Shown in pieces: positions 3,846 to 62,283 of a DNA stretch of 64,000 bases; the first letter of the stretch is position 1, and the number at the start of each line of letters is the position of its first letter. The translations under genes and the position numbers were made by a program. Source of the stretch: Clostridia bacterium (GTDB lineage Bacteria > Bacillota > Clostridia > Oscillospirales > Acutalibacteraceae); contig JAWXUR010000003.1 in assembly GCA_044426265.1 (NCBI GenBank), positions 714-64,713 of the forward strand, in the 5' to 3' direction. The notes below the pieces were generated by a model. It was not told the origin of the DNA. It did no database searches and saw only the letters and a list, made by a program, of their open reading frames with translations.

Positions 3846-3876
3846 ATTTTCAACTCCTTTTTTGTTTATCTGTTAG

Positions 3877-4178
3877 TGTGGACTTACGCATCATAGTTTG
3901 AAACTTAAAAATTTTTCAATTAGTTTTATATTAATGGGAAATTGAGGATTATAGGAAAAAATCCAAGATTTTTTTTAGATTTTAACCTTTTTTTTGCAAA
4001 GCAAAAATTACAATCGGAGTTCTAGCTCCCTTTTGAGGGAGATGTCAGCGAAGCTGACTGAGGGTTTGACCCTTAATTTTCCATTCTCAATTCTCAATTT
4101 TCCATTATTATTTTTTATTATTTTCTTAAGTTCCCAGCTATGGACTTACGCATTTGCCGAAGGCAAATTGTACCGCCC
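3877..4178. repeat. Mosaic hairpin-array repeat locus R1
   Basis: Chain of short perfect hairpins: TTTTTGC-AAA-GCAAAAA, GTCAGC-GAA-GCTGAC, AGGGT-TTG-ACCCT, TTTGCC-GAA-GGCAAA+TTGTACCGCC. Contains a 7-bp periodic tract at 4075..4109. The direct repeat TGGACTTACGCAT occurs at 3879..3891 and 4141..4153. Modules recur near 17670, 31004 and 51385. Confidence 0.8.
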
Positions 4179-4185
4179 ATCATGG

Positions 4186-6059: not shown

Positions 6060-6767
6060 TTAGATGAAAAATTTCTCTGAAATCCACTTTCTCATTCGCT
6101 TACTCGAATAACAATAAACCAAAAATCCAACTAAAGCTGAACTTGAAGCAATTGAAATGATGCCAAGGCTTAATAAAATATGCCCACTTCCAAATAAAAA
6201 TGCATTAAGTCCACCTAAAAACATGATTATTCCCAAAAAGCTAAAAATAAACATAAATCTAAGCAGCCAGTGACGTGGTTTTGCTTTTGACCAAATCATA
6301 TAAATCAACACACAAATTGAGCCGATTACAAAATAAGGCAAGATAATTTTTAAAAACACACCAGTTTCAAAGCCGCCCACAACAAAAATCGAATAGATAT
6401 AAGCTGGGATTGCGATTGAATCAAACGCCCACATTAGATATGGTTTGAGTTTTGATGTGAAAAACGGAAACACAAACACCACCCATAATAAAAACATGGT
6501 TGAGCCAACACCTAGTGACCACAAACTCGATTTAAAAATCAAAATGTTGCACAGCACACAAATGATTGTTGGAATGAGCATCACTATCGAAATAATGTAA
6601 GACACAAATTGCTTTTGCACGCTTTGCGGTACGTGTTCAGCTTTTGCAAATGGGGTTTTTTCTTCTTCTATTTTCTTAATTTTGGGGTTAATAACACGAG
6701 TTGCGCACAAAGCACATTTTTTCGCACTCACATCGAGTTCAACTCCGCAGTTTACACAATATGACAT
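6060..6767 (-). CDS. Membrane protein with N-terminal zinc ribbon; function unknown
   Basis: 235 aa. N-terminal CxxC...CxxC (CVNCGVELDVSAKKCALC) is followed by about six hydrophobic helices. Confidence 0.7.
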   Translation of the reverse strand: MSYCVNCGVELDVSAKKCALCATRVINPKIKKIEEEKTPFAKAEHVPQSVQKQFVSYIISIVMLIPTIICVLCNILIFKSSLWSLGVGSTMFLLWVVFVFPFFTSKLKPYLMWAFDSIAIPAYIYSIFVVGGFETGVFLKIILPYFVIGSICVLIYMIWSKAKPRHWLLRFMFIFSFLGIIMFLGGLNAFLFGSGHILLSLGIISIASSSALVGFLVYCYSSKRMRKWISEKFFI

Positions 6768-6844
6768 CTTCTAAATTTTCTCCTTATATCCAAGTGGATT
6801 TTTGCTAATACGTTGATACTATCATTTTATAGTAGTGGTAATGG

Positions 6845-7103
6845 GTAGGGTTCGCTTTCGCTCACAATGAAAAATTAAGGTTTTTTCTTTTGTTTTATGG
6901 CTTGATTTATTAGTTAATCTCGTCTACGCTCGCCGTTAGTGTTTTGTGTCAACTAAAATATTACATATCTATCGGTTATTTTGCTTAAGTTGCTTGCATT
7001 GGAATTGTCCCTCGTTTATAATGTGTGCAACGCACGCCACCACAATTTTTCATTTTTCATTCTTAATTTTTCATTGTGAGCGATAGCGAACCTTAGCCGC
7101 TAC
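6845..7103. repeat. MITE-like element R2 bounded by 31-bp terminal inverted repeats
   Basis: Left arm 6849..6879 (GGTTCGCTTTCGCTCACAATGAAAAATTAAG) matches the reverse complement of right arm 7062..7092 at 30 of 31 positions. Outer ends are GTAG (6845) and CTAC (7103). Internal modules recur inverted at 17419..17500 and 42790..42900. Confidence 0.85.
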
Positions 7104-7147
7104 ATCACACTAACTATTAAACACACAAAACTACAACTAAATCAAAC

Positions 7148-8419
7148 TCACTCTCGATTGCTCTCGATTTTAACATGGACTCCCATTTTCACTAGTCTTG
7201 TGAAAAACTCTCTTTCTATGTCGCTTTCTTTGTAGCAATTTGAAAAAGTGAATGCTAGTTTGTCGTTAAAAGTTATAACTCCGCATCTTGCACCATTTAA
7301 TTTTCCTGGGCCTGTGAAAAACATATATTTTTCAATTTCATTTTCCATTTCTTGTGGCACTTGAATTGCGCCGAGGTTTGAAATTAAAGTTGTTGTGTTT
7401 TTTTCAGCAGTGAATAAAAAGCTGAGCGCTATGCCGAAGTTTTTTATTGGCAGCGGCAAAAATTTTGCAACTGGATTTTTTTCAATTTTCAGGTTTTGGC
7501 TCATCATTGAGTTCATGATTTTAGAATCGTTTGCAAGCTTTAATTGAAGTGAAATAATCTTTAAAATTTCTTCAAAGCTATAATCGCCTAAATTCGGATT
7601 TATTCTCACTTTTAAGCAAAGCACAAAGTTTCTAAGCGTTTTTGATGGGAACGCTTTTCTCAAATTAACTGGAATTTGAACTGTTAAATCTTGTTTTTTT
7701 CTCTTTTTCGTTTCGAGCTGATTTAAATAATGCACGTAAAGCAGCAAAGCTGAGAAAAATTCTGTCACGGTTACTCCATATGAGCGGCTGATTTCATGCA
7801 CTTGATTGAAATCCATTATTCCAATGGTGTAATTACAAAAATGTTTCTTCTCTTTTGTGCCTTCAAAATGATAAGCATTTTTTTCTCGCTTATTAGCTGT
7901 AAATTTCGAGTTTGCGTATCTCATGTATGAGTCTTCAACTTGCTCATGCGTTGGCTTTTCTTTTGTGCTAAGCACAAATTCATTCGAGCCAATTTCAAGA
8001 CCTTTGAGCCTTAGATATTCACCAGCTAAAGTGCTAAGAAAAACTGATGCGCCATAGCCGTCACTCAAAACGTGATATGTGTCAATCGCAATTCGATTTT
8101 GGTGATAATAAAGGCGAAACAAAAAACCTTTATCCTCTTTAAACTTTATTCTGTAGCAGTGGTTTTTAATGTCTTTTTCAACGAAAGCTTCATTTGGATT
8201 TTTTTCAAGGTAATACCAAAAAGCACCTCGCCTAATTCTAACATCAAAATTTGGAATTCTTTTTAATGTTGTTTTCAGTGCCGCTTCTAAAAGCGCTGGT
8301 TCAATCTCGTTTTTGAGTTCAATGCCAATTCTAAAAATATTTGACCAAGAGCTTGAATTTTGCCCCGGAAAAATCTTAGCCGCATTATCAAGTTTAAACC
8401 ATTCAAAATTATTCTTCAT
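7148..8419 (-). CDS. Condensation/alcohol-acetyltransferase-like acyltransferase (HxxxDG superfamily)
   Basis: 423 aa. HxxxDG catalytic motif is present (DTYHVLSDGYGASVF). N-terminus WFKLDNAAKIFPG. Family assigned from motifs only. Confidence 0.7.
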   Translation of the reverse strand: MKNNFEWFKLDNAAKIFPGQNSSSWSNIFRIGIELKNEIEPALLEAALKTTLKRIPNFDVRIRRGAFWYYLEKNPNEAFVEKDIKNHCYRIKFKEDKGFLFRLYYHQNRIAIDTYHVLSDGYGASVFLSTLAGEYLRLKGLEIGSNEFVLSTKEKPTHEQVEDSYMRYANSKFTANKREKNAYHFEGTKEKKHFCNYTIGIMDFNQVHEISRSYGVTVTEFFSALLLYVHYLNQLETKKRKKQDLTVQIPVNLRKAFPSKTLRNFVLCLKVRINPNLGDYSFEEILKIISLQLKLANDSKIMNSMMSQNLKIEKNPVAKFLPLPIKNFGIALSFLFTAEKNTTTLISNLGAIQVPQEMENEIEKYMFFTGPGKLNGARCGVITFNDKLAFTFSNCYKESDIEREFFTRLVKMGVHVKIESNRE

Positions 8420-8474: not shown

Positions 8475-8512
8475 GGTCGTACCTTTTTGGCAAAGCCAAA
8501 AATTGTACCGCC
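8475..8512. repeat. GTAC-flanked T-run/A-run palindrome (family member 2)
   Basis: GGTCGTACC-TTTTTGGC-AAA-GCCAAAAA-TTGTACCGCC. Confidence 0.85.
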
Positions 8513-8704
8513 AAAAAAAGAGTTTAAATCGCCTTAATGATAAAAATAAACATTCCTTATTATACTATAAAAAAAGCAGCTTGACAATGCAGTTTTGAAA
8601 AAAAGATTGTTAATTTCGCAAAATTAAGCTAAATTTACTTTTATTTGATATAAAAATGTGTTAAAATAGGATTAATAATCATTGAAAGAATAGGATTTTT
8701 AAAT

Positions 8705-16320: not shown

Positions 16321-17357
16321 ACTCTTTCACCATTTGAAATGAGCATCAATTGCACTAAGAGTTGCTCGATTACAATATTTGAAGCTTGAGCGGTGTTTTT
16401 AAGTTTGAAATCTGCTTGTGCTATTGCCTCTAAGCAGCGTCTAAGATCGGAAATATCCATTCTTGATGAATCTCTTGCTCCGTTTGTTAGGGCGAAAACT
16501 CTGTTTTTATAGTTAAAATCGTCTTTCAACGCCTCTGCTCTATCGCCACACAGCACTGAAACTTTTGCTCTGTACATATCGACAAAACCGCTTGTTATTG
16601 ATCCTAAAATATATTCTGGCTCTGTTTTTTGTCTAAGCAAGGTATCGAGGACTTCATAAGCTTTTTCGAAGTTTTTGGCTAGTAGCGCACGTATCAAGTA
16701 CGAAATCTTGGTGTCAAGACTTTTGACTGCGACTTCGTCAATGTGTTTTTTTGTTATCTCGCCAGTTTGAGCGTAGCTGCACACCTTGCTCAATTCATTT
16801 ATTAACACGTTGAAATCATCACCCACCACTGTTACGAGGTAATTCGCCATTTGAGGTGAGAGGACTAAGCCTTTTTTCTTTGCCGATGAAATGAGCGGAT
16901 TTATGAGATCTTTGCCAGTTCTTTTGTTTAGTACGCAAACAGCTCCATATTTATCGAAAAGTTCGATTGCTTTTTTCGCCGTACGCAGTGAGAGGTTGTT
17001 TTTTCTTTCAACGAAGATTAAAACTGTGCTTTGTGGAAGATTTTCGAAGTAGGTTTTCATTGTCTTGTGGTCTTTTTCTGGCATTGATTCAAGCTTGAAA
17101 TCTTCAACTAAAATGCAGCGTTTTTCTGCCATGAATGGCATGAGGTCTGCGGTTTGAAGTATCTTTTGAAGGTCTGTTTCTTTGCCGTCGAATTTATCAA
17201 AATTCATATCTTTGAAAGTGTCACCAAGGCATTTATCGCAGATTGTGTTTGCGTATAGTTGTTTTAGGTAGCTTTCATCGCCATAGATTAGATAGGCGGA
17301 TTTGAATTCTTTTGTTTTGATGTGCGCTTTTAATTGTTTTTCATCGAATTTTGGCAA
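16317..17357 (-). CDS. holA: DNA polymerase III delta subunit
   Basis: 346 aa. Typical HolA N-terminus (AYLIYGDESYL) and size. Confidence 0.82.
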   Translation of the reverse strand: MPKFDEKQLKAHIKTKEFKSAYLIYGDESYLKQLYANTICDKCLGDTFKDMNFDKFDGKETDLQKILQTADLMPFMAEKRCILVEDFKLESMPEKDHKTMKTYFENLPQSTVLIFVERKNNLSLRTAKKAIELFDKYGAVCVLNKRTGKDLINPLISSAKKKGLVLSPQMANYLVTVVGDDFNVLINELSKVCSYAQTGEITKKHIDEVAVKSLDTKISYLIRALLAKNFEKAYEVLDTLLRQKTEPEYILGSITSGFVDMYRAKVSVLCGDRAEALKDDFNYKNRVFALTNGARDSSRMDISDLRRCLEAIAQADFKLKNTAQASNIVIEQLLVQLMLISNGERV

Positions 17358-17418
17358 GATGTCACCTCTTTTTTTATTTTGTTGTTTTGGTTAGTTATTT
17401 TGTTTGATTTTGGTTTGT

Positions 17419-17745
17419 GGTACAGTTCGCTTCGCTCATAATGAAGAATTAAAAATGAAGAATGAAAAATTGTGGTGGCGTGCTTTGCACGCATTATAAA
17501 CGTAGGGGTGACCTGTGGTCGCCAGAAAATTTCATCAAACCTACTGGCGACCGCAGGTCGCCCCTACAATTTACCTATTGTAGGGACATGGCTTGCCATG
17601 TCCGCAAGTATAGTACAAACTCAGTTTCGGACATGGCAAGCCATGTCCCTACGTTGTGAGTGATGTTTTTTCCTTAAGTTCCCGAGTATGAGATGCGATT
17701 TTTCATTTTTCATTCTTCATTTTTCATTGCAAGCGCTAGCGAGCT
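17419..17745. repeat. Composite repeat R5: MITE-like frame carrying two REPIN-like doublets
   Basis: Outer arms (AGTTCGCTTCGCTCATAATGAAGAAT / ATTCTTCATTTTTCATTGCAAGCGCTAGCGAGCT) are imperfect inverted repeats with 7-bp periodic tracts. Inside are doublets at 17502..17567 and 17580..17652. About 210 bp recurs inverted at 51369..51600. The right end abuts the stop codon of the LicD-fusion gene. Confidence 0.88.
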
Positions 17746-19594
17746 AAATGTATTCTCCTAAATCCAGTTGGACTATATTGTGCCCTGAAAATCTTTGTGT
17801 ATATGGTAGTAAGTCCATGTAATTTTCGCCGTATAGCTTGGTTAAATATGGTTTTTCGTGGGCGGAAATTTTTATTTTACGTCCCTCGAAATTGGTTTCT
17901 TTTAGCTCTTGTAGCCACTCGATTGGCAGCGCACCTTTGAGCATATTGTTGCCCACTCCGTCAATGACAAATTTGCTGTTTTTCTTATTTTTATAAACGC
18001 AAAGAACCTTGTCAAAGCACCAGTGATAAAATTTGAATGGCAAGATTTTTAAAAATGGAAGTGCTATTTTTGAAAGTGTTTTTCTGTTTTGTTTTTTTGC
18101 TTCGTCAAGCCAAATCATGTTTAAAATCAGCTTGAAAATTCGAACAAAAAATATGTGAAGTTTTTGCATTTTTGAATTGTTTGAAGTCTTATCAAAAACC
18201 AAGATGTCAACGAAAATTCCGTTGTGCATTTTTGGGAAGTTGATTGATGAATCAGTTGCAAAAACAGTGCCGTTCAAGCGGATTTTATCGAAGATATAAT
18301 GTGAGTTTTCATCTGTTTTGTTGCACTGGAAAAACATTGACTCTGGCAGATTTTCGGCGCAGATTTTTCTGAATTTATCATAATCTTCACGCATCATGCC
18401 AAGGTCGATATCATCGTCCCATGGAATGAAACCGCCGTGTCTTACTGCTCCTAAAAATGAGCCACCAACAAGGAAAACTTCGAGCTCATTTTCTTTGCAA
18501 ATCCTTAAAATTTCATCGACAATATTCATTTCAAGAGCCTTGATTTTTTCGAGTTTGCCCTCATAAACGTCAACAAAAAACTCACCTTGATAGTCGATAT
18601 CCATTAAATAACTTGCGGTTTTTTTGATTGCTGTGCTAAACTTTATGTTTGGCTTAATGCCTAAATGCTCAGCTTTTTTGCAGCTTAAAACTTCATAGCT
18701 GTTTTGCGAATTTTCAGCGTTAAAATTACAGTTCACTTTGATGTTTTTATCGGCGAATGTTTCGAGCAAAATCGACTTTAATTCGTGGATTGTGAAGCTG
18801 TGGCTGTTAAGATTATAACTCGAACCAAACTCGCCTTTTTGAGCTAAGGTTAAAATCGCTATGATTAAATCGCTAACATAAATAGCGCCATAGTGAGTTG
18901 CACTATCATCTGCGTTAAAAGTTAGCTCGTTTGTTTTTATAAAATCTTCAATTATTTGATTTATGTCAAGCTTTGTTTTGGTTTTTACGCAAGGGGCAAA
19001 AACTGCGTTATGCCTTAAAATTAGGCTTGCGGTTTCGGCTTGTTTGAAATTTTGTTTTAATGTGTTTTCAAGGCTTAACATGAGTTTGCCTCGGGTGAAA
19101 GTTTCATCTTTTTTCGACTGTGAAAGCAGTTCATTCTCTGCTAAGGCGCAAATATTTTCTTCATGTGGCTTATTAAAATCGAACTGCTCACACAAGATGA
19201 ATTTATTTTCGTTTTCACTTGCGTATTTTACCCAATTTTCGAGGTCTTTTTCTTTGGCTTTAAATTCAGTTTCGTTTTGATATAAGTTTAAGTTTGTAAA
19301 GTAAAAGTAAAAAGCGGAGCTAATTTGAGTTTTGTTTTTTGTGAAATCTTCAAAGTTTTTATATGTTTTGATGCCGCCAAGTGGAAAACTTTCATCGCTT
19401 AGCTCACTTGAGCAAATAACGCTGCATTTTTCCCCAACGCTGGCGAGGATACGAGCCATGTACGAGCAAAAAGATGGCTCATCAAAAACTAGCACTATCT
19501 CTTTATTTTCGTAAGTTTTTAGATTTATTTTTTCATGCTTGAGCGCCTTTAAAATCTCATTAATTTCATCTTGAAAATATAAATTCATTGCCAC
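17744..19594 (-). CDS. LicD-family phosphotransferase fused to an N-terminal degenerate epimerase/SDR-like domain
   Basis: 616 aa. The C-terminal half has the LicD pattern (FLVGGSFLGAVRHGGFIPWDDDIDLGM). The N-terminal half resembles extended SDRs (YVSDLIIAILTLAQKGEFGSSYNL) but has no GxxGxxG. Confidence 0.78.
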   Translation of the reverse strand: MAMNLYFQDEINEILKALKHEKINLKTYENKEIVLVFDEPSFCSYMARILASVGEKCSVICSSELSDESFPLGGIKTYKNFEDFTKNKTQISSAFYFYFTNLNLYQNETEFKAKEKDLENWVKYASENENKFILCEQFDFNKPHEENICALAENELLSQSKKDETFTRGKLMLSLENTLKQNFKQAETASLILRHNAVFAPCVKTKTKLDINQIIEDFIKTNELTFNADDSATHYGAIYVSDLIIAILTLAQKGEFGSSYNLNSHSFTIHELKSILLETFADKNIKVNCNFNAENSQNSYEVLSCKKAEHLGIKPNIKFSTAIKKTASYLMDIDYQGEFFVDVYEGKLEKIKALEMNIVDEILRICKENELEVFLVGGSFLGAVRHGGFIPWDDDIDLGMMREDYDKFRKICAENLPESMFFQCNKTDENSHYIFDKIRLNGTVFATDSSINFPKMHNGIFVDILVFDKTSNNSKMQKLHIFFVRIFKLILNMIWLDEAKKQNRKTLSKIALPFLKILPFKFYHWCFDKVLCVYKNKKNSKFVIDGVGNNMLKGALPIEWLQELKETNFEGRKIKISAHEKPYLTKLYGENYMDLLPYTQRFSGHNIVQLDLGEYI

Positions 19595-20528: not shown

Positions 20529-20540
20529 CCACTCATGTTC

Positions 20541-20628
20541 GGCGGTACAATTTTTGCGGTTAACCGCAAAAAGGTACGATCACCACGACATGAACTCCGT
20601 GATTGATTTGCTCAACGAGCAATCGAAA
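20541..20628. repeat. GTAC-flanked palindrome (member 3) plus two further hairpins
   Basis: GGCGGTACAA-TTTTTGCGG-TTAA-CCGCAAAAA-GGTACGA, then ATCAC...GTGAT and GATTTGCTC-AAC-GAGCAATC. Confidence 0.8.
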
Positions 20629-23940: not shown

Positions 23941-25428
23941 ATGAAAAAGATTTATATTAGAGCTGGTATGTTACCGACTGAATTATTTACTCCACAAGAG
24001 ATGATAACTCGAAATGTTTTAGGCAACAATGTTGGAAATTTGATTTACCAATATGGAATTATTAGATCTTTAACCACTCCTGATACTGAATTTATGGCAA
24101 GCAGATATAAAAACAAATTAAGCGATGCTGAAATTGATCAAATCAACAATGAATGCAGTGCTCATATCTTGCCATTTGCTGATGCGTTTCGTCCAGATTT
24201 CGTTGACGAATTAAGACAAATCACGTCAAACATTAAAAGATTTAATATGCCAACTGTCATTGCTGGTGTTGGAATTCGTGCACCTTATGAGCCTAATTTA
24301 AATCAAGGATTTAAGTTTGATGATGCTGTTAAAGAGTTTGTTAAAGCTGTGCTTGATAAGTCAGCAATAATTGGTGTTAGAGGTCAAATCACTGCCGATT
24401 ATTTAACTAAACTTGGCTTTAAAGAAGGTCGTGATCACACTGTTATCGGCTGTCCTTCAATGTATTCAAATGGTAGAGAGTTTGAAATTAGAGAAACTGT
24501 TATCAATGAAAACTCAAAGTTTTCATTTAATACAACTAGTGCTTCAGCAGCAAACATTCAACAATTTATCATAAATAATGCCGCTAGTTTTAATGATTCA
24601 ACTTATATTCCGCAACTCGTTGCCGAACTCAATCTTTTACACACTGGTAAAGAATTTATCAGCCGTGCTCACTCATCTTATCCATCAACCATCACTGGAA
24701 AATTCCATTTAGAAGATAGAGTTAAATTCTTTTTAAACGCTCCATCTTGGATGAACTTCATGAAAAGTGTTGATTTAAGCTTTGGCACAAGACTTCATGG
24801 TAACATCGTTGCAACTATGTCAGGAACTCCGGTAATCTTAATTCCTAAAGATGCTCGCACAAGGGAAATAGCATCCTATCATAATCTCACTGTAATTGAG
24901 GGAGGTTTAAAACTTGACCCATCAGAAAAATTACTCGATTATGTTGAAAAATTAGATTTTCAATCACCTATAAAGGTTCAAAAAGAAAATTTCGATCACT
25001 TCATAGACTTTTTAGATGCTAACGGTCTTGATCACGCTTATAAAGAAGATAGAAATGCAAAACATTTAGAACTTGATCGTCAAATTAAAAACTGTTCGCA
25101 CAGAGCCGAGGCTAGTTCGCTTTACAAAAGCGTTGACGCAAGAGAAGTTATGAGAAGATTAGAGCCTATCAATGCACTCGATTTTTCAAAAGAAAACGTG
25201 TTTAAAGATAACTTCAATCAAATTAAGAGTCAGCATGATGAGCTTAACCTTTCAGATAAAGAAAGAAAAACTCTTCTTAAAAATGACTCAAATTCAATTA
25301 AAACACTCGAAAAAGAATTAGCAGAAGTTGAACAAAAGCTTTCTAAAAATCAAACAAAACTCGAAGAGCTTTCAGCTTTAATCTCCGCCCCAAATATTGA
25401 GAAAAAAAGTGACGGGAAGGTGTTATAA
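23941..25428 (+). CDS. Polysaccharide pyruvyl-transferase-like protein with C-terminal coiled-coil tail (paralog 1)
   Basis: NVGNLIYQYGIIRSL near the N-terminus and GTRLHGNIVATMSGTPVILIP resemble the PS_pyruv_trans pattern. The last ~90 aa are heptad-like and K/E/L-rich. ATG 23941 follows GAGGTG. Confidence 0.62.
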   Translation: MKKIYIRAGMLPTELFTPQEMITRNVLGNNVGNLIYQYGIIRSLTTPDTEFMASRYKNKLSDAEIDQINNECSAHILPFADAFRPDFVDELRQITSNIKRFNMPTVIAGVGIRAPYEPNLNQGFKFDDAVKEFVKAVLDKSAIIGVRGQITADYLTKLGFKEGRDHTVIGCPSMYSNGREFEIRETVINENSKFSFNTTSASAANIQQFIINNAASFNDSTYIPQLVAELNLLHTGKEFISRAHSSYPSTITGKFHLEDRVKFFLNAPSWMNFMKSVDLSFGTRLHGNIVATMSGTPVILIPKDARTREIASYHNLTVIEGGLKLDPSEKLLDYVEKLDFQSPIKVQKENFDHFIDFLDANGLDHAYKEDRNAKHLELDRQIKNCSHRAEASSLYKSVDAREVMRRLEPINALDFSKENVFKDNFNQIKSQHDELNLSDKERKTLLKNDSNSIKTLEKELAEVEQKLSKNQTKLEELSALISAPNIEKKSDGKVL

Positions 25429-25429: not shown

Positions 25430-26947
25430 ATGAAAAAATATTATATGCGTTGCGGCACTTTGCCAACTGAACTCTTAAGCCCATTTGAATTTCAAACAAA
25501 AAATATCATTGGCTCAAATGCTGGTAATTTAGTTTATCAATATGGAATTATTCGTTCACTTCTCACTTATAAAAGCGAATTTATTCCAAGCCAATATGAA
25601 AATAAACTCAGCGATGCACAACTTGAACAAATCAATAGTGAATGCACAGCTCATATTCTTCCACTTTCAGATGCATTTCGTCCTGAATTTATGAATGAGC
25701 TAAGGCTTATCACAAAAAACGTGAAAAAGCTCGATATTCCAACTATCGTTACTGGCGTTGGCTTAAGAGCTCCTTATGAACCTGACTTAAGCCAAAGTTT
25801 TTCTTTTGATGAAGATGTTAAAGAGTTTATGAAAGCTGTGCTTGAAAAATCAGCTATCGTTGGTGTTAGAGGGCAAATCACAAGTGATTATTTAACTAAA
25901 CTCGGATTTAAAGAAGGCACTCATCACACTGTTATCGGCTCTCCTGGAATGTATGCAAAAGGTCGTGAGTTTGAAATTAGGGAAACTGTTATCAATGAGT
26001 TTTCAAAAGTTGCTTTCAACTCAACTAGCGCTTGTGGGTTAAATATTCAACGATTCATTATGAACAATGCTGATAAATTTGCTGAGGCAACTTTTCTTCC
26101 TCAACTCGTTGATGAACTTCGCTTGCTTTATGCTGGCAAAGAATTTATCAGCAAAGCGGATAAGTCATATCCATCAAAAATAGCTGGAAAATATCACATG
26201 GACGATAATGTTAAATTCTTTTTAAATGTGCCATCACGGATGAAATTTTTGAGCAATATGGACCTTTGTTTCGGTGCTAGACTTCACGGAAACATCGCCG
26301 CCTTAATGTCAGGCACTCCTGCAGTTATTATTCCAAAAGACACTCGCACTCGTGAAGCGGCTGAATATCACAATTTAACCATGATTAAAGACGGTTCAAA
26401 ACTTGACCCAGAGGCTAATTTGCTCGATATAATCGAAGATTTAGATTTGCAAGCTCCCAAAAAAGTACAAAAAGAAAACTTTGATCATTTTATTGACTTC
26501 TTAGATGCTAATGGACTTGAGCACGTTTATGTTCAAGATAAAGATCTTAAAACTACGACTTTAGATTTGCAAAACATTTCTAAAACTGCTGAGGTTAAAC
26601 CTCTTGTTAAATGCAATGTCAATGAAATTGTTTATCGTCTTTCCTCCTTCAACTCTTACGAGGCTGGAAAAATAAGAACCACTAATAAAAAAATTGATGA
26701 TATGAAAAAGAATATCGCTGGTTTTAGAAAACAAAGACCTATTCAGCTTAAGCAAATTGAAGATAATAAAGTCTTAATAAGCGAAAAGCAGGAACTACTT
26801 AATGCTAAAAAAGACGAGCTCGAAGAACTTAATGAGCAAGTTAAGTTAGTTCAAGAACAATACGATCTACAACAAGCCAAACTCAAAGAAGAAGCAGAAA
26901 GACTAGCTCAAGAAGAAGCAGAACTAGCTGAACAAGAGCAAATTTAA
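25430..26947 (+). CDS. Polysaccharide pyruvyl-transferase-like protein with C-terminal coiled-coil tail (paralog 2)
   Basis: Clear paralog of the preceding gene over ~400 aa. The tail ends QEQYDLQQAKLKEEAERLAQEEAELAEQEQI. ATG 25430 lies 1 nt after the upstream stop. Confidence 0.62.
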   Translation: MKKYYMRCGTLPTELLSPFEFQTKNIIGSNAGNLVYQYGIIRSLLTYKSEFIPSQYENKLSDAQLEQINSECTAHILPLSDAFRPEFMNELRLITKNVKKLDIPTIVTGVGLRAPYEPDLSQSFSFDEDVKEFMKAVLEKSAIVGVRGQITSDYLTKLGFKEGTHHTVIGSPGMYAKGREFEIRETVINEFSKVAFNSTSACGLNIQRFIMNNADKFAEATFLPQLVDELRLLYAGKEFISKADKSYPSKIAGKYHMDDNVKFFLNVPSRMKFLSNMDLCFGARLHGNIAALMSGTPAVIIPKDTRTREAAEYHNLTMIKDGSKLDPEANLLDIIEDLDLQAPKKVQKENFDHFIDFLDANGLEHVYVQDKDLKTTTLDLQNISKTAEVKPLVKCNVNEIVYRLSSFNSYEAGKIRTTNKKIDDMKKNIAGFRKQRPIQLKQIEDNKVLISEKQELLNAKKDELEELNEQVKLVQEQYDLQQAKLKEEAERLAQEEAELAEQEQI

Positions 26948-30517: not shown

Positions 30518-31170
30518 GGTACAGTTTTTCTGTTATGCGTTTTTTATGGTACAGTTTTTGGCGGTAAACCGCAAAAAACGTGGTTTCGAGGGAGTGCGGT
30601 GGTTTTTGTTTCGTGAAATCACGAAACACGAATTTTTTCAGTTTCCATGGCATATGTATCGGTTAGTTTTTTTGTTTCTAGGTAGCTTTGATGTGTTGGG
30701 ACGTTTCGGCGAGCGTTTAATTTTGGCTTTGCCAAAATTATTGCGTGCCTTGCACGCAATTGCTGCGGCTTCGCCGCAGCAAAACGCTCGCCGAAACTGC
30801 ACCGCTAACTGACGATTACAATCCACAAAACAGTCGGCTGTCGCCGTCTGTTTTGCTAGTTTCATAAATCAAGCCGTAAAAATCGCTTTGCTCTTTTACT
30901 ACTAACGCAAATGCGATGTTATTTTCTCTTGGTTTGATTTGTAGGGTAATATAGTGCATTTAGTTTAGTTTTACGTTTATTTGAATCGCATTTGCTTTGC
31001 TTTAATTCTCAATTCTCAATTTTCAATTCTCCATTTTCTTGTGGTTTTCGCTCGTTGCGACGAGCGACTTAAGGCTCTGCCTTAAGAATCTGCAATTTTT
31101 CGTGAAAAATTGAGTAAAGCTTTGCTTGCTTTTTTTCTTTTTTCTTTTCTTTTTTTATTTTTTCTTTTTT
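30518..31170. repeat. Largest hairpin-array repeat locus R8 (~650 bp)
   Basis: GTAC palindrome (GGTACAG-TTTTTGGCGG-TAAA-CCGCAAAAAA), then GTTTCGTGA-AA-TCACGAAAC. A 16-bp outer stem encloses three hairpins at 30703..30797. Next come the AAAACAG..CTGTTTT hairpin, the CGCAAATGCGAT module, a 7-bp periodic tract (31004..31038), a partial hairpin chain (31046..31129) and a T/C tract (31130..31170) abutting the alaS stop. Confidence 0.88.
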
Positions 31171-33810: not shown

Positions 33811-33887
33811 TATGTTTATTTCCTTTCGGTTTTTATTTTTGTTTTGTAATTAATAATGTTATAATTAATTGAGAAAAAATCATGTAA

Positions 33888-34086
33888 AATTTTACTCAAT
33901 TTTTTTAAAAAATTGCGGTTTCTTAAGGCAGAGCCTTAAGGCGCTCGCCGCAGCGAGCGAAATCTCCTATCGTCAAAAAAATCAGGAGGATAGACAAAAA
34001 TTTGTCCATTGGACAATTTTTTGTCGTAAGGAACCCTATTAAGGGGTTCCTTGATTTTGCCAAAGGCAAAACAATACAGATTTGCC
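33888..34086. repeat. Hairpin-chain element, full copy H1, inside the alaS 5' leader
   Basis: At least six consecutive stem-loops: CAATTTTT/AAAAATTG, CTTAAGGC-AGA-GCCTTAAG, CGCTCGC-CGCA-GCGAGCG, TTTGTCCA/TGGACAA, GGAACCC-TATTAA-GGGGTTCC and TTTTGCC-AAA-GGCAAAA. Collinear with 38392..38597 (inverted) and 40926..41290. Confidence 0.88.
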
Positions 34087-36196: not shown

Positions 36197-36239
36197 GGTC
36201 GTACTTTTTTTGCGGCTTGCCGCAAAAAACTGTACCGCC
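36197..36239. repeat. GTAC-flanked palindrome (member 5)
   Basis: GGTCGTAC-TTTTTTTGCGGC-TT-GCCGCAAAAAA-CTGTACCGCC, preceded by GTAGCT. Confidence 0.85.
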
Positions 36240-38391: not shown

Positions 38392-38597
38392 GTAGCGGTG
38401 AGATTGCTTTGTTTTGCCTTCGGCAAAATCAAGAAACCCCCGCCGAGGGTTTCTTACGCAAAAATGTCCACCGGACACTTTTGCTATCTTCCTGCGGTTT
38501 TTTGGCGATAAGGTATTTCGTTCGCTGCGGCGAACGCCCAAAGGCTCTGCCTTTGGAAACCGCAATTTTTCGAGAAAAATTGAGTAAAGCTTTGCTC
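38392..38597. repeat. Hairpin-chain element, full copy H2 (inverted relative to H1)
   Basis: Begins GTAGCGGTGAG. Same module order as H1 but with changed, still-complementary stems: CCAAAGGC-TCT-GCCTTTGG, AGAAACCC...GGGTTTCT and GTTCGC-TGCG-GCGAAC. Ends 24 nt from the stop of the lipid-kinase gene. Confidence 0.88.
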
Positions 38598-38620
38598 ATT
38601 ATATTGCTTTAAAATTCTTC

Positions 38621-40704: not shown

Positions 40705-40925
40705 AAATACCTGCTTTCTAAGTTTACATACTATTTTTAATTTCAAATTCAGCCAAGTTTATAAGTAGCTGATAAAATGATTTTAGGTTATAGGCACGCT
40801 CGATTGAACACACCTATAACCATTGTAACATTTTTATTCGGATTTTAAAAGTAGTTTAGCGTAAAAAGTTTGATTTATGCTTGACTTTTTTCAGTTTTTG
40901 CACAACCCAACAGAAAATTGAGAAA

Positions 40926-41290
40926 AAGCAAGCAAAACTTTACTCAATTTTTCACAAAAAATTGCGGATTCTAAAGGCAGAGCCTTTAGGCGCTCGCCGC
41001 AGCGAGCGAAACTCCCAATCGTCAAAAAAATCAGGAGGATAGGCAAAGTGTCCAGTGGACATTTTTTTGCGCAGTAGCTTGTAAATTTTAAAACTTTACA
41101 TAATTATCGAGAGATTTTTGTCTAAATCAAGGCGGAGGATTGAGCAATACTTTCGTATTGCGATTGACGACAACGCAGAGTTAGACTAAAATATACGATA
41201 AGTATGTGGAGTTTTAGGGTTTATAAGCTACTTTGGAACCCTATTAAGGGGTTCCTTGATTTTGCCGCTGGCAAAACAAAACAATCTTAC
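40926..41290. repeat. Hairpin-chain element, full copy H3, carrying a nested 158-bp hairpin insertion
   Basis: Collinear with H1 except for 41074..41231 (GTAGCTT...AAGCTAC), inserted between the TGTCCA/TGGACA and GGAACCC/GGGTTCC modules. Confidence 0.88.
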
Positions 41291-41874: not shown

Positions 41875-42101
41875 AACGTCATCTCCTTTCGTTTTTAAAT
41901 TGCTAGAACCAACTAAAACTTAATTTGTTCTATCTATATTATAGCACATTGTAGCAAAAAATAAAGCTTTTTTAGATAATTTTATTATATTTCCATAAAT
42001 TTTGGGGCTTTTCTCTGTTTTAAACAAAGATTACATTGCGTTTTTAGATATTTTTTACAAAGTTTAATTTTTATTTTAATTAAATATTAATCAAACATTG
42101 T

Positions 42102-42341
42102 TTATATTTTCGTTTTATAGTAAGCTTTTTCCAATTTTTCTTCGTATGTATTAAACTCAAACGGCTTACCTGTTTGGTTTTCGTATTGGGTTAATAGGGT
42201 TTTTAATTTTTGATGATAGCATGAGTTTAGGGTGTTTGCGGTTTGGTCGGTTTTTTGTTTTTTTAGGTATAATTCTATTGATAAGATTATTCTTTTTGTG
42301 GTTTTTATTTGTGATGTTAGTGTTTGGATTGTTTGTTTCAT
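42102..42341 (-). CDS. Small hypothetical protein (79 aa), uncertain
   Basis: ATG is preceded by AAGGGGTGA with 5-nt spacing, and a TATAAT lies about 30 nt upstream. Lys/Thr-rich, helical-looking, with no motif I recognise. Confidence 0.35.
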   Translation of the reverse strand: MKQTIQTLTSQIKTTKRIILSIELYLKKQKTDQTANTLNSCYHQKLKTLLTQYENQTGKPFEFNTYEEKLEKAYYKTKI

Positions 42342-42459
42342 GGTTTCACCCCTTTTTTAGGGTATTATATGCTGTTTTTGGTTTGGGGTTATTTATAACA
42401 CCCCTTAACCACAAATAAAAAATAAACAAACAAACTAATCTAAACGAAGTAAGACGTAA

Positions 42460-43262
42460 AAAGTTGGACGTAAGGAGCACCGCAGGTGCGGATATCCCAC
42501 TTTATAAAAGACTAAGGCAAAGAAGACAAAGAACAAAACAGTCGGGGTGTGCCAGATTTTTAGGCTGCAAGGCAGGCTAAAAATATTCCCCACCGACGGC
42601 GATAAAAATAAAATGTCCTAAATGCAGTGAGTTCCCCAAGAACGCATTTTGGTTACTTTTGTGCGAGCAAAAGTTACGCTGTGTTTTGTGTTAATTAAAA
42701 TGTTACAATAGCTATCGAGGTATTTTGTTTAAAACAAGGCGGAGGATTGAGCAATACTTTCGTATTGCGATTGACGACAACGAAGTTTTAAGCAAAATAA
42801 CCGATAGATATGTAATATTTTAGTTGACACAAAACACTAACGGCGAGCGTAGACGAGGCTTTCTTATAAATCAAGCTATAAAACAATAAGATTAATTTCT
42901 TTATATTACCTAATATTCGTTTACAGGTCACCAAAATAGCCAGCTGTCGCTGTCTGTTTTGGTTATGCCCATAAATCAGTCCGTAAAAAATCGCTTTGCT
43001 CTTTTTACTACTAACGCAAATGCGATATCGTTTTTCCTTTACATTGCTGTTTAGGTTACGATACCGCATTTAGTTAAATTGTTCTATTTTTTTTCGCATT
43101 TGCTTTTTTCATTTTTAAGTTTTTTATTTGTTTTGAAATTGCTGGGGATTTCGCTTGCTGCTGCAAGCGCCTTAAGGCTCTGCCTTAAGAATCCGCAATT
43201 TTTCGTGAAAAATTGAGTAAAGCTTTGCTTGCTTTTTTCTTTTTCTTTTTATTTTTTCTTAT
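42460..43262. repeat. Hairpin-array repeat locus R14 (~800 bp)
   Basis: Contains GCACC-GCA-GGTGC and a TTTTTAGGCTGC/GCAGGCTAAAAA hairpin. Carries the 48-nt core (42735..42782) on its own stem, modules inverted relative to 6890..6990, the CGCAAATGCGAT module, a partial hairpin chain (43148..43232) and a T/C tract (43233..43262) abutting a gene stop. Confidence 0.82.
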
Positions 43263-43264
43263 GT

Positions 43265-49934: not shown

Positions 49935-49977
49935 GGCGTACTTTTTTTGGCGGTTAACCGCCAAAAAACTGTACCCC
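49935..49977. repeat. GTAC-flanked palindrome (member 6) between convergent genes
   Basis: GGCGTAC-TTTTTTTGGCGG-TTAA-CCGCCAAAAAA-CTGTACCCC. Confidence 0.85.
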
Positions 49978-51368: not shown

Positions 51369-51965
51369 GCGTAGGGGTTGACCTCATAGCTGGGAACTTA
51401 AATGAAAAACCATCAATCACAACGTAGGGACATGGCTTGCCATGTCAGAAACTTGGTTTGTGCTATACTTGCGGACATGGCAAGCCATGTCCCTACAATA
51501 GGAAAATTGTAGGGGCGACCTGTGGTCGCCAGTAGGTTTGATGAAATTTTCTGGCGACCTCAGGTCGCCCCTACACTAACAAATAAATTTTTCAAATCTC
51601 TTAAGTTACTGGCAATAAAATCGCCCACTACGTTTTTAAAGGAATTTCATAAAGCAATCCGTAAAAAATCGCTTTGCTCTTTTTACTACTAACGCAAATG
51701 CGATATCGTTTTTTCCTTTAGATTGCTCTTTAGGAAACGATACCGCATTTAGTTAGTTTGTTTTATTTTTTTATCGCATTTGCTTGTTGCTAATTTTCAA
51801 TTTTCAATTCTCAATTTTCAATTTTCTTGGGGTGTTTCGCTTGCTGCTGCAAGCGACTTAAGGCTCTGCCTTAAGAATCTGCAATTTTTCGTGAAAAATT
51901 GAGTAAAGCTTTGCTTGCTTTTTTCTTTTTTATTTTTATTTTTTATTTTTCTTTTTATTCTTTAC
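51369..51965. repeat. Composite repeat R16
   Basis: REPIN-like doublets at 51424..51496 and 51509..51574, inverted relative to 17502..17652. Also the CGCAAATGCGAT module (51655..51765), a 7-bp periodic tract (51792..51826), a partial hairpin chain (51835..51918) and a T/C tract (51919..51965) abutting a gene stop. Confidence 0.88.
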
Positions 51966-51977
51966 CTATTCTTCTAA

Positions 51978-52424
51978 TTATTCAGCTGAAAAAATCCCCT
52001 CAACAGCATCAACAATCATATCTTTAAGATAATTAAGACCATATTTGATAAGACCAACCCAAATGTTTGATTCATGATCAACATTTTCATTCGAAGTAAC
52101 ATAAGTTATTTCGCCATCTTCTTCAAATATTTCCATTGTGCAAGTGAATGAACAGTTGATTTCTTGTTTAACTGTAACTGTGTAAGTGCCGTCACCATTG
52201 TCATCATAAATAGTGTCTAACAAGTCGTAACAACAGCTCATGTCTAAGCCTTCAACCCTATAGATATAATATTTGGCATACACTCTAATTTCACTATCAA
52301 GTGTTGAAAGTTGAGTTGTTGTGAGATCGTCCATTGAAACTGCGGTTGAAGTTGCAGTTGCTGGAATAACGAGTGAGAACATCATGATTGCAGCGAGTGC
52401 AAATGAGATTAATTTTTTAGTCAT
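51978..52424 (-). CDS. Small secreted Cys-containing protein, unknown family (cassette copy 1)
   Basis: 148 aa from ATG 52424 (RBS GAAGGAGG; the track TTG start is unlikely). Has a signal peptide (MTKKLISFALAAIMMFSLVIPATA), four Cys and a DDNGDG loop. Confidence 0.72.
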   Translation of the reverse strand: MTKKLISFALAAIMMFSLVIPATATSTAVSMDDLTTTQLSTLDSEIRVYAKYYIYRVEGLDMSCCYDLLDTIYDDNGDGTYTVTVKQEINCSFTCTMEIFEEDGEITYVTSNENVDHESNIWVGLIKYGLNYLKDMIVDAVEGIFSAE

Positions 52425-52444
52425 TTTTCTTTCCTCCTTCAAAC

Positions 52445-54181: not shown

Positions 54182-54288
54182 AAATTTGTTCCTCCACTTT
54201 TTTAATATTTTCTAAATCAACTAAGCATGAATTTCACAACTTCATATTGTTTTAACGAAAAATCACCTCTAGTTTAAAATATATTTAA

Positions 54289-54419: not shown

Positions 54420-54445
54420 TTAATTATTGGATTTTTTTACACTAA

Positions 54446-54892: not shown

Positions 54893-54912
54893 TTTTCTTT
54901 CCTCCTTCAAAC

Positions 54913-56649: not shown

Positions 56650-56779
56650 AAATTTGTTCCTCCACTTTTTTTAATATTTTCTAGTTTTAACTAAACTTGA
56701 ACTCCCCCAAATTAAACACATAATTCTAAATTATAATTATTTTAATAAAAAGCTCACACTTAGTTTAAATTACATTTAA

Positions 56780-58541: not shown

Positions 58542-58586
58542 TTTTAGTACTTTTTTTGCGGTTAACCGCAAAAAACTGTACTAAAA
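58542..58586. repeat. GTAC-flanked palindrome (member 8, nearly perfect 45-bp palindrome)
   Basis: TTTTAGTAC-TTTTTTTGCGG-TTAA-CCGCAAAAAA-CTGTACTAAAA. Confidence 0.88.
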
Positions 58587-58661
58587 AGCAGACAATTGAC
58601 CTTTTTGAAATTCAAACTTGAAACAAACTAATAAAACATGAATATATTTCATCAAATTAAC

Positions 58662-62242: not shown

Positions 62243-62283
62243 GGTGCGTACCTTTTTCGGCAAAGCCGAAAAATTGTACAGCC
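62243..62283. repeat. GTAC-flanked palindrome (member 9) between convergent genes
   Basis: GGTGCGTACC-TTTTTCGGC-AAA-GCCGAAAAA-TTGTACAGCC. Confidence 0.85.

What the first reader, a model, noticed from the sequence alone, without database searches (positions are those of the whole stretch)
6845..7103. MITE-like frames with 31-bp terminal inverted repeats sharing interchangeable internal modules
The arms 6849..6879 and 7062..7092 are inverted repeats identical at 30 of 31 positions (GGTTCGCT[T/A]TCGCTCACAATGAAAAATTAAG). The element is capped by GTAG (6845) and CTAC (7103). A related, more diverged arm pair frames 17419..17745. The right interior of this element (CGTTTATAATGTGTGCAACGCACGCCACCACA plus the 7-bp periodic tract) is the reverse complement of the left interior of the 17419 element. 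Its centre (6890..6990) recurs inverted at about 42790..42900 without the arms. The same parts are therefore reassembled in different combinations, as in mosaic (BIME-like) elements or nested non-autonomous transposons.
Basis: seen in the sequence. Interest (0 to 1): 0.62.

Follow-up and report, generated by a model that had tools for sequence, protein, structure and literature searches.

The report
Mosaic intergenic repeat cluster forming a hairpin
A 260-base non-coding insert sits between two genes of an uncultured fish-gut Clostridia bacterium; it is pieced together from short repeats that occur tens to about a hundred times in the same community, so it is a new family of a well-known kind of bacterial "junk/regulatory" repeat rather than a new kind of system.

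Summary
The arms 6849-6879 and 7062-7092 match at 30 of 31 positions, against 0 matches in 100 shuffles. The pairing extends to 6838-7103 at 88%. All three cross-matches to 17.4 kb and 42.8 kb hold up under BLASTN.

The host is an uncultured fish-gut Oscillospirales bacterium, with Acutalibacteraceae-like relatives.

The element is an insertion. In five related genomes the two flanking genes lie 13-39 nt apart. One of these is a 78%-identical relative from the same fish study. In the window the gap is 380 nt.

The element is not a uniform MITE:
- Contig depth differs by module: about 3-10x for the centre, about 25x for the linker, about 60x for module B and about 110x for the heptad tract plus arm.
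- Module boundaries are ragged.
- There is no target-site duplication of 4 nt or more.
- None of 40 window ORFs scanned is a transposase.

The second frame encloses GTAG-tagged REP doublets.

The best reading is a BIME/REPIN/BOX-like mosaic of short dispersed repeats. It is transcribed with its neighbours, and the arms can close a stem of about 40 bp. How it spreads is inferred, not shown. Single-strand hairpin (HUH/RAYT-type) processing or microhomology recombination is the leading idea.

It is a new family of a known kind, of moderate to low interest.

The parts
6838..6848 (+). Outer extension of the left arm, including the GTAG head (6845-6848). It pairs imperfectly with 7093-7103.
   Evidence: 42-nt inverted repeat, 88%
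6849..6879 (+). Left arm a1: GGTTCGCTTTCGCTCACAATGAAAAATTAAG. Its complement carries GCGAAAGC (the GCGNNAGC mini-hairpin motif).
   Evidence: motif from PMC13037366
6876..6935 (+). Module C1: a T-rich stretch followed by GGCTTGATTTATTAGTTAATCTCGTCTACGCTCGCCGTTAGT. Depth is about 3-10x the single-copy flank. In other copies it is preceded by ...CAATGCAAGCAAC instead of the arm, and the junction falls inside the shared TTAAGG.
   Evidence: boundaries 6875/6876 and 6935, loose ends
6937..6988 (+). Module C2, at about 20-30x depth. It also occurs as an inverted pair, 42681-42735 / 42785-42837, around a core hairpin.
6983..7012 (+). Linker GCTTAAGTTGCTTGCATTGG followed by a degenerate REP tail (AATTGTCCCT). 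In other copies the linker abuts a GGGGCGACC-type REP. This stretch differs between samples.
   Evidence: loose ends
7013..7044 (+). Module B: CGTTTATAATGTGTGCAACGCACGCCACCACA. It holds a TATAAT hexamer and a small G+C hairpin. Depth is about 60x. A second copy lies at 17472-17502 (-).
7045..7075 (+). Heptad tract, ATTTTTC x 4.4 (AATGAAR on the other strand). It overlaps the inner part of the right arm. It is the most abundant piece, at about 110x.
7062..7092 (-). Right arm a2: GGTTCGCTATCGCTCACAATGAAAAATTAAG. It carries GCGATAGC.
7093..7103 (-). Outer extension of the right arm (TTAGCCGCTAC), a degenerate head.
6060..6767 (-). Downstream flanking gene: a 235-aa zinc-ribbon membrane protein (orthologues have a weak DUF6320 hit). 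RNA contigs run from this gene up into the left arm (to 6855).
7148..8419 (-). Upstream flanking gene: a 423-aa AATase-like (alcohol acetyltransferase / condensation-like) protein.
17419..17745 (.). Second frame, between the LicD-family gene and holA. Parts in order: arm a3 plus heptads (17419-17470), module B copy (17472-17502), GTAG REP doublet D (17502-17567), GTAG REP doublet E (17580-17652), module X (17660-17697), heptads plus arm a4 (17698-17745). Arm a4 abuts the TAG stop of the LicD gene.
42788..42886 (-). Arm-less copy of module C (94% identical to 6890-6988), inside a 1.39-kb gene-free stretch.

Best explanation
The feature is one cluster of a lineage-specific system of short dispersed intergenic repeats. 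It resembles BIME, REPIN and BOX elements. It is not a single transposon.

Shown:
- The cluster is built from at least five separable modules: arm/heptad, C1, C2, linker and B. Each has its own copy number and its own set of neighbours elsewhere in the genome or community.
- Two arm units in opposite orientation bracket the rest.
- The whole block is an insertion into what is a 13-39-nt intercistronic spacer in related genomes.
- The genes on either side are transcribed, and RNA contigs run from the downstream gene into the arm.

Inferred (function):
- The block is co-transcribed with the two genes.
- In RNA, or in transiently single-stranded DNA, the arms close a stem of about 40 bp. That stem could be cut (RNase III-type) or could protect transcript ends. 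Either effect would loosen the expression coupling of the two genes.
- In gene orientation the first arm places stop codons in all three frames (TGA, TAA, TGA, one per heptad) directly after the upstream gene.

Inferred (spread):
- The modules probably do not move by cut-and-paste DDE transposition.
- More likely routes are hairpin-directed single-strand processing of the REP/RAYT (HUH-Y1) type, and/or microhomology recombination or template switching between copies.
- The near-identical left arm looks like a local inverted copy of the terminal 35-42 nt of the right-hand B-arm unit.
For: Repeat structure:
- Arms and cross-matches are confirmed.
- Depth ratios to the single-copy flank differ by module, from 3x to 110x.
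- Alternative neighbours appear at boundaries 6875/6, 6935/7, 6988, 7012/3 and 7044.
- A 286-nt RNA contig joins the linker, a REP, the 8484-8502 hairpin, a B-variant and the heptad arm in another order.

Insertion:
- The orthologous gene pair is 27 nt apart in L016/L017, 13 nt in L019, 16 nt in L030-32 and 39 nt in L033. L033 is 78% identical and comes from the same fish study.
- The window gap is 380 nt.
- About 53 kb of non-fish relatives (L016-L020) has no hit to any module.

Structure:
- RNA fold of frame 1: -70.8 kcal/mol, z=-6.3, 0 of 200 shuffles as good. DNA fold: z=-7.5.
- Frame 2: -156.7 kcal/mol, z=-15.

Transcription:
- RNA contigs cover 6631-6855 and 6528-6828, and 17249-17480, which is the holA leader including arm and heptads.
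- B-arm units have RNA depth 2880-3142 in X5, while the REP doublets have 0-58.

Against a DDE MITE:
- No TSD of 4 nt or more.
- Ragged arm ends.
- No transposase among 40 window ORFs.

REP context:
- GTAG-headed palindromes in inverted doublets lie inside frame 2 and at 51.4 kb.
- Arms of other copies end in GGTA-N-R-GTTCGC.
- There is precedent for REP dimers nested in long palindromes, and for TIRs made of degenerate GTAG units joined to unrelated stem-loops (PMC3733652).

Independent confirmation of the sequence.
Against: - No Y1/HUH or other transposase could be looked for in the rest of the genome. Only 64 kb is in hand, and the one genome-contig scan did not return this genome.
- The arms themselves are not palindromic REPs. 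Only one of the two arms has a clean GTAG head.
- Depth ratios come from metagenome unitigs. Related species in the same samples may carry the same repeats, so the ratios are upper bounds on per-genome copy number.
- RNA evidence comes from unstranded assembled contigs that may contain DNA. No contig spans the element from the upstream gene, and RNA depth is 0 over 7122-7591. Co-transcription and processing of the stem are therefore not shown.
- The high RNA depth of B-arm units relative to REPs could instead mean that module B carries a promoter.
Confidence: 0.62

Rival explanations
1. It is a classical MITE: a non-autonomous cut-and-paste element with 31-bp terminal inverted repeats, moved in trans by a DDE transposase of an IS elsewhere in the genome. 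Other small elements later nested inside it.
For: - Near-perfect 31-bp terminal inverted repeats.
- Small size, no ORF, A+T-rich.
- It is an insertion relative to relatives.
- It folds into a long hairpin.
- A 'TAG' trinucleotide flanks 6849-7093 on both sides.
Against: - The 3-nt flank match is at chance level among about 440 boundary pairs tried; no TSD of 4 nt or more was found.
- Copy numbers of the parts differ up to about 30-fold, so the frame is not the unit of amplification.
- Arms occur singly (L008 and L014) and with ragged outer ends.
- No transposase in the window.
Confidence: 0.13
2. The abundant 85-nt 'B-arm' unit (TATAAT, small hairpin, U-rich heptads, CAUUGUGAGCGNNAGCGAAC) is a functional cis-regulatory cassette, either a portable promoter with leader or an RNA stability/processing signal. 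Selection, not mobility, keeps it upstream or downstream of many genes. Frame 1 is an accidental pairing of one such cassette with a partial inverted copy.
For: - A perfect TATAAT lies at 7017-7022 and is conserved in the 17.4-kb copy. There it points at holA, whose RNA leader contains the arm and heptads.
- A variant of the module also keeps TTATAAT (loose ends at 7044 and 17698).
- B-arm units are 50-100 times better represented than REP doublets in RNA run X5, relative to DNA.
- Similar single units lie in the sense orientation after rpmJ (L008) and after an RluD-like gene (L014) in ruminant Clostridia MAGs.
- All four arms keep the GCGN(N)AGC mini-hairpin motif, and the bases that differ are the N positions (PMC13037366).
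Against: - The promoter scan found nothing on either strand of 6700-7200. The best -35 (TTGCAT) matches only 3 of 6 positions and is not part of the conserved module.
- In frame 1 the TATAAT points antisense into the 3' end of the upstream gene, and no RNA is seen beyond the arm (depth 0 over 7122-7591).
- The unit occurs in both orientations relative to genes.
- No Rfam family matches.
- GCGNAGC and GCGNNAGC also occur at about 50 other positions across the window, with no clustering in the repeats.
Confidence: 0.17
3. The module combination is an assembly artefact: a chimeric path through repeats chosen by the assembler.
For: - Positions 6995-7022 have zero depth at 99% identity or better in four runs that otherwise hold 94-96% of the region's words.
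- Logan contigs break inside the element.
Against: - Run X8 contains an exact 129-nt unitig for 6926-7054 and a 762-nt contig running from 7032 into the right flank.
- Left-flank contigs reach 6911-6930 exactly.
- Frame 2 is tiled by exact overlapping unitigs in X1.
- The flanking genes are syntenic with relatives.
Confidence: 0.03

Closest known systems
BIMEs (bacterial interspersed mosaic elements) and GTAG-tagged REP clusters / REPINs of Proteobacteria and other phyla (Di Nocera et al. 2013, PMC3733652; Nunvar et al. 2010, PMC2817692)
   Same: - Extragenic position.
- Tens to hundreds of copies.
- Short modules in alternating orientation, joined by a limited set of linker motifs in varying combinations.
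- Location mostly between co-directional genes and after coding regions.
- No target-site duplication.
- Fold into larger stem-loops.
- Genuine GTAG-headed palindromic doublets lie inside the sister frame (17502-17567, 17580-17652).
- REP dimers nested in long palindromes, and TIRs made of degenerate GTAG units joined to unrelated stem-loops, are described in that paper.
   Different: - The arms of this element are not self-complementary REPs. They are 31-50-nt units made of a TCGCT(N)TCGCT direct repeat, CACAATG and AATGAAR heptads.
- The stem is formed between two arms 182 nt apart.
- No RAYT gene could be looked for.
- The host is a Clostridia bacterium. The text of the 2013 survey (8 phyla) contains neither 'Firmicutes' nor 'Clostridi'.
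BOX elements of Streptococcus pneumoniae (Croucher et al. 2011, PMC3049150)
   Same: - Gram-positive host.
- Modular build, with terminal modules (boxA, boxC) that pair and a variable interior (boxB copies).
- Size range 67-637 bp.
- Transcribed as untranslated parts of operons and predicted to form stem-loops.
   Different: - BOX modules come in a fixed order A-Bn-C and are reported to make target-site duplications. Here the order and identity of the interior modules vary and no duplication is seen.
- Sequence similarity to BOX was not tested.
Correia elements of Neisseria and other MITEs (as summarised in PMC3049150)
   Same: - Terminal inverted repeats of 26-31 bp.
- About 100-260 bp long.
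- Inserted in operons and transcribed.
- The long RNA stem is an RNase III target in Neisseria, which is the model for the inferred effect here.
   Different: Correia elements are uniform full-length copies with a TA duplication and precise ends. This element has neither.
Heptanucleotide STRR repeats and small dispersed repeats nested in larger palindromic repeats in cyanobacteria (my own recollection of Mazel et al. 1990 and Elhai et al. 2008; not retrieved here)
   Same: Tandem 7-nt units in intergenic DNA, and small repeats inserted inside larger repeats without duplications.
   Different: Different sequences and phylum. This is a resemblance recalled from memory only.

Membership tests
MITE (definition as in PMC3049150 background: small, A+T-rich, terminal inverted repeats, base-paired structure, target-site duplication, TIRs shared with a resident IS) | Terminal inverted repeats | tested here: met
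   30/31 over 31 nt, extending to 42 nt at 88%; 0 matches in 100 shuffles
MITE | Small, non-coding, A+T-rich, folds into a hairpin | tested here: met
   259-266 nt with only spurious ORFs of 46 aa or less. RNA fold z=-6.3, DNA fold z=-7.5.
MITE | Target-site duplication of fixed length at the ends | tested here: not met
   All end pairs 6832-6851 x 7088-7109 and 17405-17429 x 17735-17759 were scanned. Only 3-nt matches appeared, at chance frequency. The empty sites in relatives are too diverged to map the junction.
MITE | Many copies of the same full-length unit with precise ends | tested here: not met
   Module depth ranges from 3x to 110x the flank. Outer arm ends fall at 17425, 17432 and 17440 in other copies.
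MITE | Resident IS with matching terminal repeats | not testable with these tools
   Only 64 kb of the genome is available and it holds no transposase among 40 ORFs. The genome-contig scan did not return this genome.
REP / REPIN / BIME (GTAG super-family, PMC3733652) | Unit is a 20-40-bp imperfect palindrome with an unpaired GTAG tag at one end | tested here: not met
   The arms of 6845-7103 have a GTAG/GGTA head but no internal palindrome. The criterion is met only by the units inside frame 2: GTAGGGGTGACCTGTGGTCGCCAG and GTAGGGACATGGCTTGCCATGTCCG.
REP / REPIN / BIME | Extragenic, high copy number, units in alternating orientation combined with linker motifs in varying mosaics | tested here: met
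REP / REPIN / BIME | Cognate RAYT (TnpA-REP, HUH-Y1) gene in the genome, usually flanked by the repeats | not testable with these tools
BOX (S. pneumoniae) | boxA-boxB(n)-boxC order and sequence | not tested
   No BOX reference sequence was compared. Only the architecture is analogous.
Any curated RNA family (Rfam 15) | Score at or above the gathering threshold | tested here: not met
   No hit at gathering threshold in the window except a tRNA. E-value mode returned nothing for 6760-7150, and only sub-threshold generic miRNA-hairpin hits for 17350-17760 and 41875-43264.

The most novel reading that the evidence does not exclude
The arm/heptad units and the GTAG-tagged REP doublets they enclose are cis-sites of an as yet unseen HUH-Y1 (RAYT/TIRYT-type) single-strand DNA processing system in Clostridia. 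That would be the first BIME/REPIN-like system described in Firmicutes. The arm itself would be a selected insulator carrying three features: a GCGN(N)AGC mini-hairpin, stop codons in all three frames, and pairing with a partner arm. Such insulators would partition operons at the RNA level.
Probability: 0.12. Interest if true: 0.6.

Novelty: new member of a known kind. Interest (0 to 1): 0.33.

Why it matters
If the reading is right, this uncultured fish-gut Oscillospirales lineage has recently filled its intergenic spacers with a set of REP/BIME-like modules. Examples are a 380-nt gap here against 13-39 nt in relatives, and 340 nt against 40-73 nt between recQ and recJ.

This matters in three ways:
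- It extends mosaic REP-type repeats, including GTAG-tagged doublets, to Clostridia.
- It explains why short-read assemblies of these genomes break at every such spacer.
- It offers natural with/without comparisons, in closely related species in the same fish, for testing what a 40-bp stem inside an operon does to expression.

It does not reveal a new kind of system.

Tried and rejected
- Scan of 185,579 species genomes for the arm pattern. It gave 12 hits. Only two are genuine arms: L008 (Ruminococcus MAG) and L014 (Clostridia MAG). The rest are chance matches inside genes (e.g. L006). The window's own genome was not returned.
- Two JGI metagenome scans. The strict pattern gave 0 hits. The loose heptad pattern gave 9 heterogeneous hits. 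Several are merely A+T-rich leaders in front of start codons on the other strand (L025-L027). I therefore do not claim that the arm is widespread.
- Protein search with the 46-aa spurious ORF that spans module B and the arm, meant to fish out other copies. No candidate was found.
- The look-up of encoding contigs with the 423-aa protein: not on record. With the 235-aa protein: only short contigs that break in module C.
- Promoter and terminator scan of 6700-7200: none. My hand-found TTGCAT-17-TATAAT has a weak -35 that is not conserved in the 17.4-kb copy.
- Rfam at gathering and at E-value thresholds: nothing real.
- Viral contigs: 0 hits.
- Integron attC, lac/cre-type operator and leader-peptide (MKNEKLWWRALHTL) readings were considered from the sequence. 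All were dropped. The flanking genes are conserved housekeeping genes. The operator-like bases fall on the variable N positions. The mini-ORF has no ribosome-binding site.
- GCGNAGC / GCGNNAGC counts in the window: about 50 sites scattered across the window, not clustered in the repeats; no test against composition or coding bias was run. I keep this as an observation, not as evidence.
- CTTAAG is 5.6 times denser in intergenic DNA, but this simply reflects its presence inside several repeat modules.
- Literature search for RAYT in Clostridia or Firmicutes: nothing relevant.

Full report
**What is there.**
- The sequence at 6838-7103 lies between two minus-strand genes. Upstream is a 423-aa AATase-like protein (7148-8419). 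Downstream is a 235-aa zinc-ribbon membrane protein (6060-6767).
100 dinucleotide-preserving shuffles gave none.
- The inverted repeat extends to 42 nt at 88%.
  - 6890-6988 against the reverse complement of 42788-42886: 94%.
  - 7013-7091 against the reverse complement of 17425-17502: 91%.
  - 7045-7089 against 17698-17742: 91%.
- The four arms align under MAFFT. Two arms from ruminant-gut Clostridia MAGs align with them (A3).
- The only correction concerns the caps. CTAC at 7100-7103 is 7 nt away from the arm. Other copies end in GCGAAC-Y-N-TACC. The conserved head is therefore GGTA-N-R-GTTCGC.

**Whose DNA it is.**
- Runs that hold the region are fish-gut metagenomes from one study.
- The best named relatives of the 423-aa protein are Acutalibacteraceae and Clostridia MAGs, at about 63-68% identity.
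- The 40 window ORFs that were scanned are ordinary chromosomal genes. They include recJ, holA, alaS, ispD, pyrI and competence and cell-wall genes; recQ and ligA are assigned from the Pfam hits on their orthologues in related loci. None is a transposase.

**It is an insertion.**
- In relatives the same two genes are adjacent and co-directional. Their gaps are:
  - 27 nt in L016/L017.
  - 13 nt in L019.
  - 16 nt in L030-L032.
  - 39 nt in L033, a relative with a 78%-identical protein from the same fish study.
- The window has 380 nt.
- A third fish-gut relative (L015, 76%) has a diverged arm directly after the stop codon, and its contig breaks there.
- The site is therefore filled in some members of this clade and empty in others.
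- About 53 kb from non-fish relatives has no hit to any repeat module of the window.
- The recQ-recJ spacer shows the same inflation: 340 nt with heptads and small hairpins, against 40-73 nt.

**It is a mosaic, not one unit.** Metagenome unitigs were laid on the region. Summed depth relative to the single-copy flanks is:

| Part | Coordinates | Depth vs flank |
|---|---|---|
| Left arm | 6840-6873 | about 3x |
| C1 | 6876-6935 | 3-10x |
| C2 and linker | 6937-7012 | 20-30x |
| Module B | 7013-7044 | about 60x |
| Heptads plus right arm | 7044-7077 | about 110x |

- In frame 2, B-arm units give 70-108x and the two GTAG REP doublets give 44-690x.
- The ratios are upper bounds per genome, because related species in the samples may share the repeats. 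They do agree with the 2-4 arm units seen per 64 kb.
- Loose ends define module boundaries at 6875/6876, 6935/6937, 6988, 7012/7013 and 7044. They also show other neighbours at each boundary:
  - C1 is usually preceded by ...CAATGCAAGCAAC rather than by an arm. That junction lies inside the shared TTAAGG.
  - C2 is usually followed by the core hairpin seen at 42736-42784.
  - B is usually preceded by a GGTCGCCCCTAC REP tail.
  - A B-variant (TTATAATCCGGAACGAAGTGACCCTT) can replace B.
- One 286-nt RNA contig strings together the linker, a REP, the 8484-8502 hairpin, the B-variant and the heptad arm.
- The outer ends of the arms are ragged in other copies.
- No direct repeat of 4 nt or more flanks either frame.

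**Is the assembly right?**
- Frame 2 is tiled by exact overlapping unitigs in X1, and the other three runs also carry exact pieces.
- For frame 1, positions 6995-7022 are missing at 99% identity or better from four runs.
- A fifth run of the same study contains an exact 129-nt unitig for 6926-7054. It also has a contig running from 7032 into the right flank.
- The combination is therefore real, and the centre of the element differs between samples.

**Structure and expression.**
- As RNA in gene orientation, the element folds into one long hairpin closed by about 40 bp of arm pairing. The energy is -70.8 kcal/mol with z=-6.3. As DNA the z-score is -7.5.
- Frame 2 folds with an outer arm stem, two REP-doublet hairpins and the small B hairpin. 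The energy is -156.7 kcal/mol with z=-15.
- Metatranscriptome contigs from the same study cover 6631-6855 and 6528-6828. These run from the downstream gene into the left arm.
- Another contig covers 17249-17480, the holA leader with arm, heptads and part of B.
- B-arm units are far better represented than the REP doublets in RNA run X5.
- These contigs are unstranded and may contain DNA. No RNA is seen over 7122-7591. Read-through across the element is therefore plausible but not shown.
- No sigma-70-like promoter or intrinsic terminator passes the scan.
- No Rfam family fits.

**Details of the arm.**
- All four arms keep GCGN(N)AGC on the T-rich strand: GCGAAAGC, GCGATAGC, GCGAAGC and GCGCTAGC. 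The bases that differ between arms are the N positions. This is the consensus of the very stable DNA mini-hairpin reviewed in PMC13037366.
- The motif also occurs at about 50 other positions scattered across the window. I record it as a lead only.
- In gene orientation, the arm that follows each upstream gene reads AATGAAR heptads. With a 7-nt period these place stop codons in all three frames within 21 nt, which the sequence shows directly. In frame 2 the TAG stop of the LicD gene directly abuts the arm.
- Similar single units lie in sense orientation after rpmJ in a Ruminococcus MAG and after an RluD-like gene in a sheep Clostridia MAG.

**Interpretation.**
- The facts fit a BIME/REPIN/BOX-like mosaic. 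Short modules have been amplified to different degrees and joined in varying orders. They accumulate in spacers between co-directional genes, lack duplications and fold into stem-loops when single-stranded.
- The literature describes the same pattern for GTAG REPs. It includes dimers nested in long palindromes and TIRs built from degenerate GTAG units plus unrelated stem-loops (PMC3733652).
- Modular BOX elements in a Gram-positive host are a further parallel (PMC3049150).
- The strict MITE reading fails two defining tests: target-site duplication and uniform full-length copies.
- The mechanism of spread is inference. Candidates are HUH-Y1 hairpin processing or microhomology recombination. The left arm looks like a local inverted copy of the end of the right-hand B-arm unit.
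- A promoter-cassette role for module B remains a live rival.

**Verdict.** The thing is a new family of a known kind. Interest is moderate to low.

Noticed in passing
window 17502-17567, 17580-17652, 51424-51496, 51508-51575: GTAG-tagged G+C-rich palindromes occur in inverted doublets (REPIN-like): GTAGGGGTGACCTGTGGTCGCCAG...CTGGCGACCGCAGGTCGCCCCTAC and GTAGGGACATGGCTTGCCATGTCCG...CGGACATGGCAAGCCATGTCCCTAC. The 185-nt block D+E recurs inverted at 51390-51574 (91-93%). Depth in the metagenomes is 44-690x the flank. The text of the 2013 survey of GTAG REPs contains neither 'Firmicutes' nor 'Clostridi'.
   Followed up: partly
window 31046-31140, 33874-33962 (-), 38516-38610, 40912-41011 (-), 43149-43243, 51835-51929: A 95-nt module of three consecutive hairpins is present in at least 6 copies flanking alaS and other genes: TCGCTCGT..ACGAGCGA, CTTAAGGC..GCCTTAAG and CAATTTTTC..GAAAAATTG. 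Stems differ between copies by paired changes, e.g. CGTTCGC/GCGAACG and CCAAAGGC/GCCTTTGG in the 38.5-kb copy.
   Followed up: no
window 8478-8523, 20538-20573, 30543-30581, 36203-36236, 49938-49974, 58542-58587, 62247-62294, 4150-4180: A family of A/T-stem hairpins bracketed by GGTAC/GTACC (e.g. GGTACAATTTTTGCGGTTAACCGCAAAAAGGTAC), some lying directly after coding regions (e.g. 20538 after the 19821-20528 gene, 4150-4180 after recQ). The copy at 8478-8523 sits in the 5' leader of the 423-aa gene, downstream of a conserved TTGTCA-17-TATAAT promoter. It is absent from the orthologous leader in L015.
   Followed up: partly
window 41875-43264: A 1.39-kb stretch has no ORF of 90 aa or more except one spurious ORF. 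It contains a long palindrome (42681-42735 / 42785-42837, module C2) around a core hairpin, GCAATACTTTCGTATTGC, which recurs at 41116-41175. It also holds several other repeat modules shared with 30.8-31.2 kb and 51.6-52.0 kb.
   Followed up: no
window 3846-4185: The recQ-recJ spacer is 340 nt here against 40-73 nt in relatives. It holds a second heptad class (AATTCTC/AATTTTC, also at 31004-31035 and 51792-51826) and a row of small hairpins (GTCAGCTTCGCTGAC, CTCCCTCAAAAGGGAG).
   Followed up: partly
window 51974-54214 and 54442-56683: A tandem duplication of a 2.2-kb two-gene unit (a 154-aa protein plus a GH28 glycoside hydrolase) at 87.5% identity, with repeat-rich spacers around it.
   Followed up: no
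window 24028-25041 and 25517-26530: Adjacent paralogous genes, 73% identical over 1 kb (the first has a polysaccharide pyruvyl-transferase hit; the second was not scanned), in a cell-wall/teichoic-acid gene cluster (LicD, IspD, CDP-glycerol glycerophosphotransferase).
   Followed up: no
window 6995-7022: The linker/module-B junction of the element is exact in run X8. It is absent at 99% identity or better from four other runs of the same study that otherwise hold 94-96% of the region's words. The interior of the element is therefore polymorphic between fish samples.
   Followed up: partly
L015 7285-7367: In a 76%-identical relative from the same fish study, the arm next to the upstream gene is followed by AAGGTGTTTTTCTTG. 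In the window that sequence follows the far (left) arm. The interior may be inverted between the two species, as expected from recombination between inverted arms. The contig ends there.
   Followed up: no
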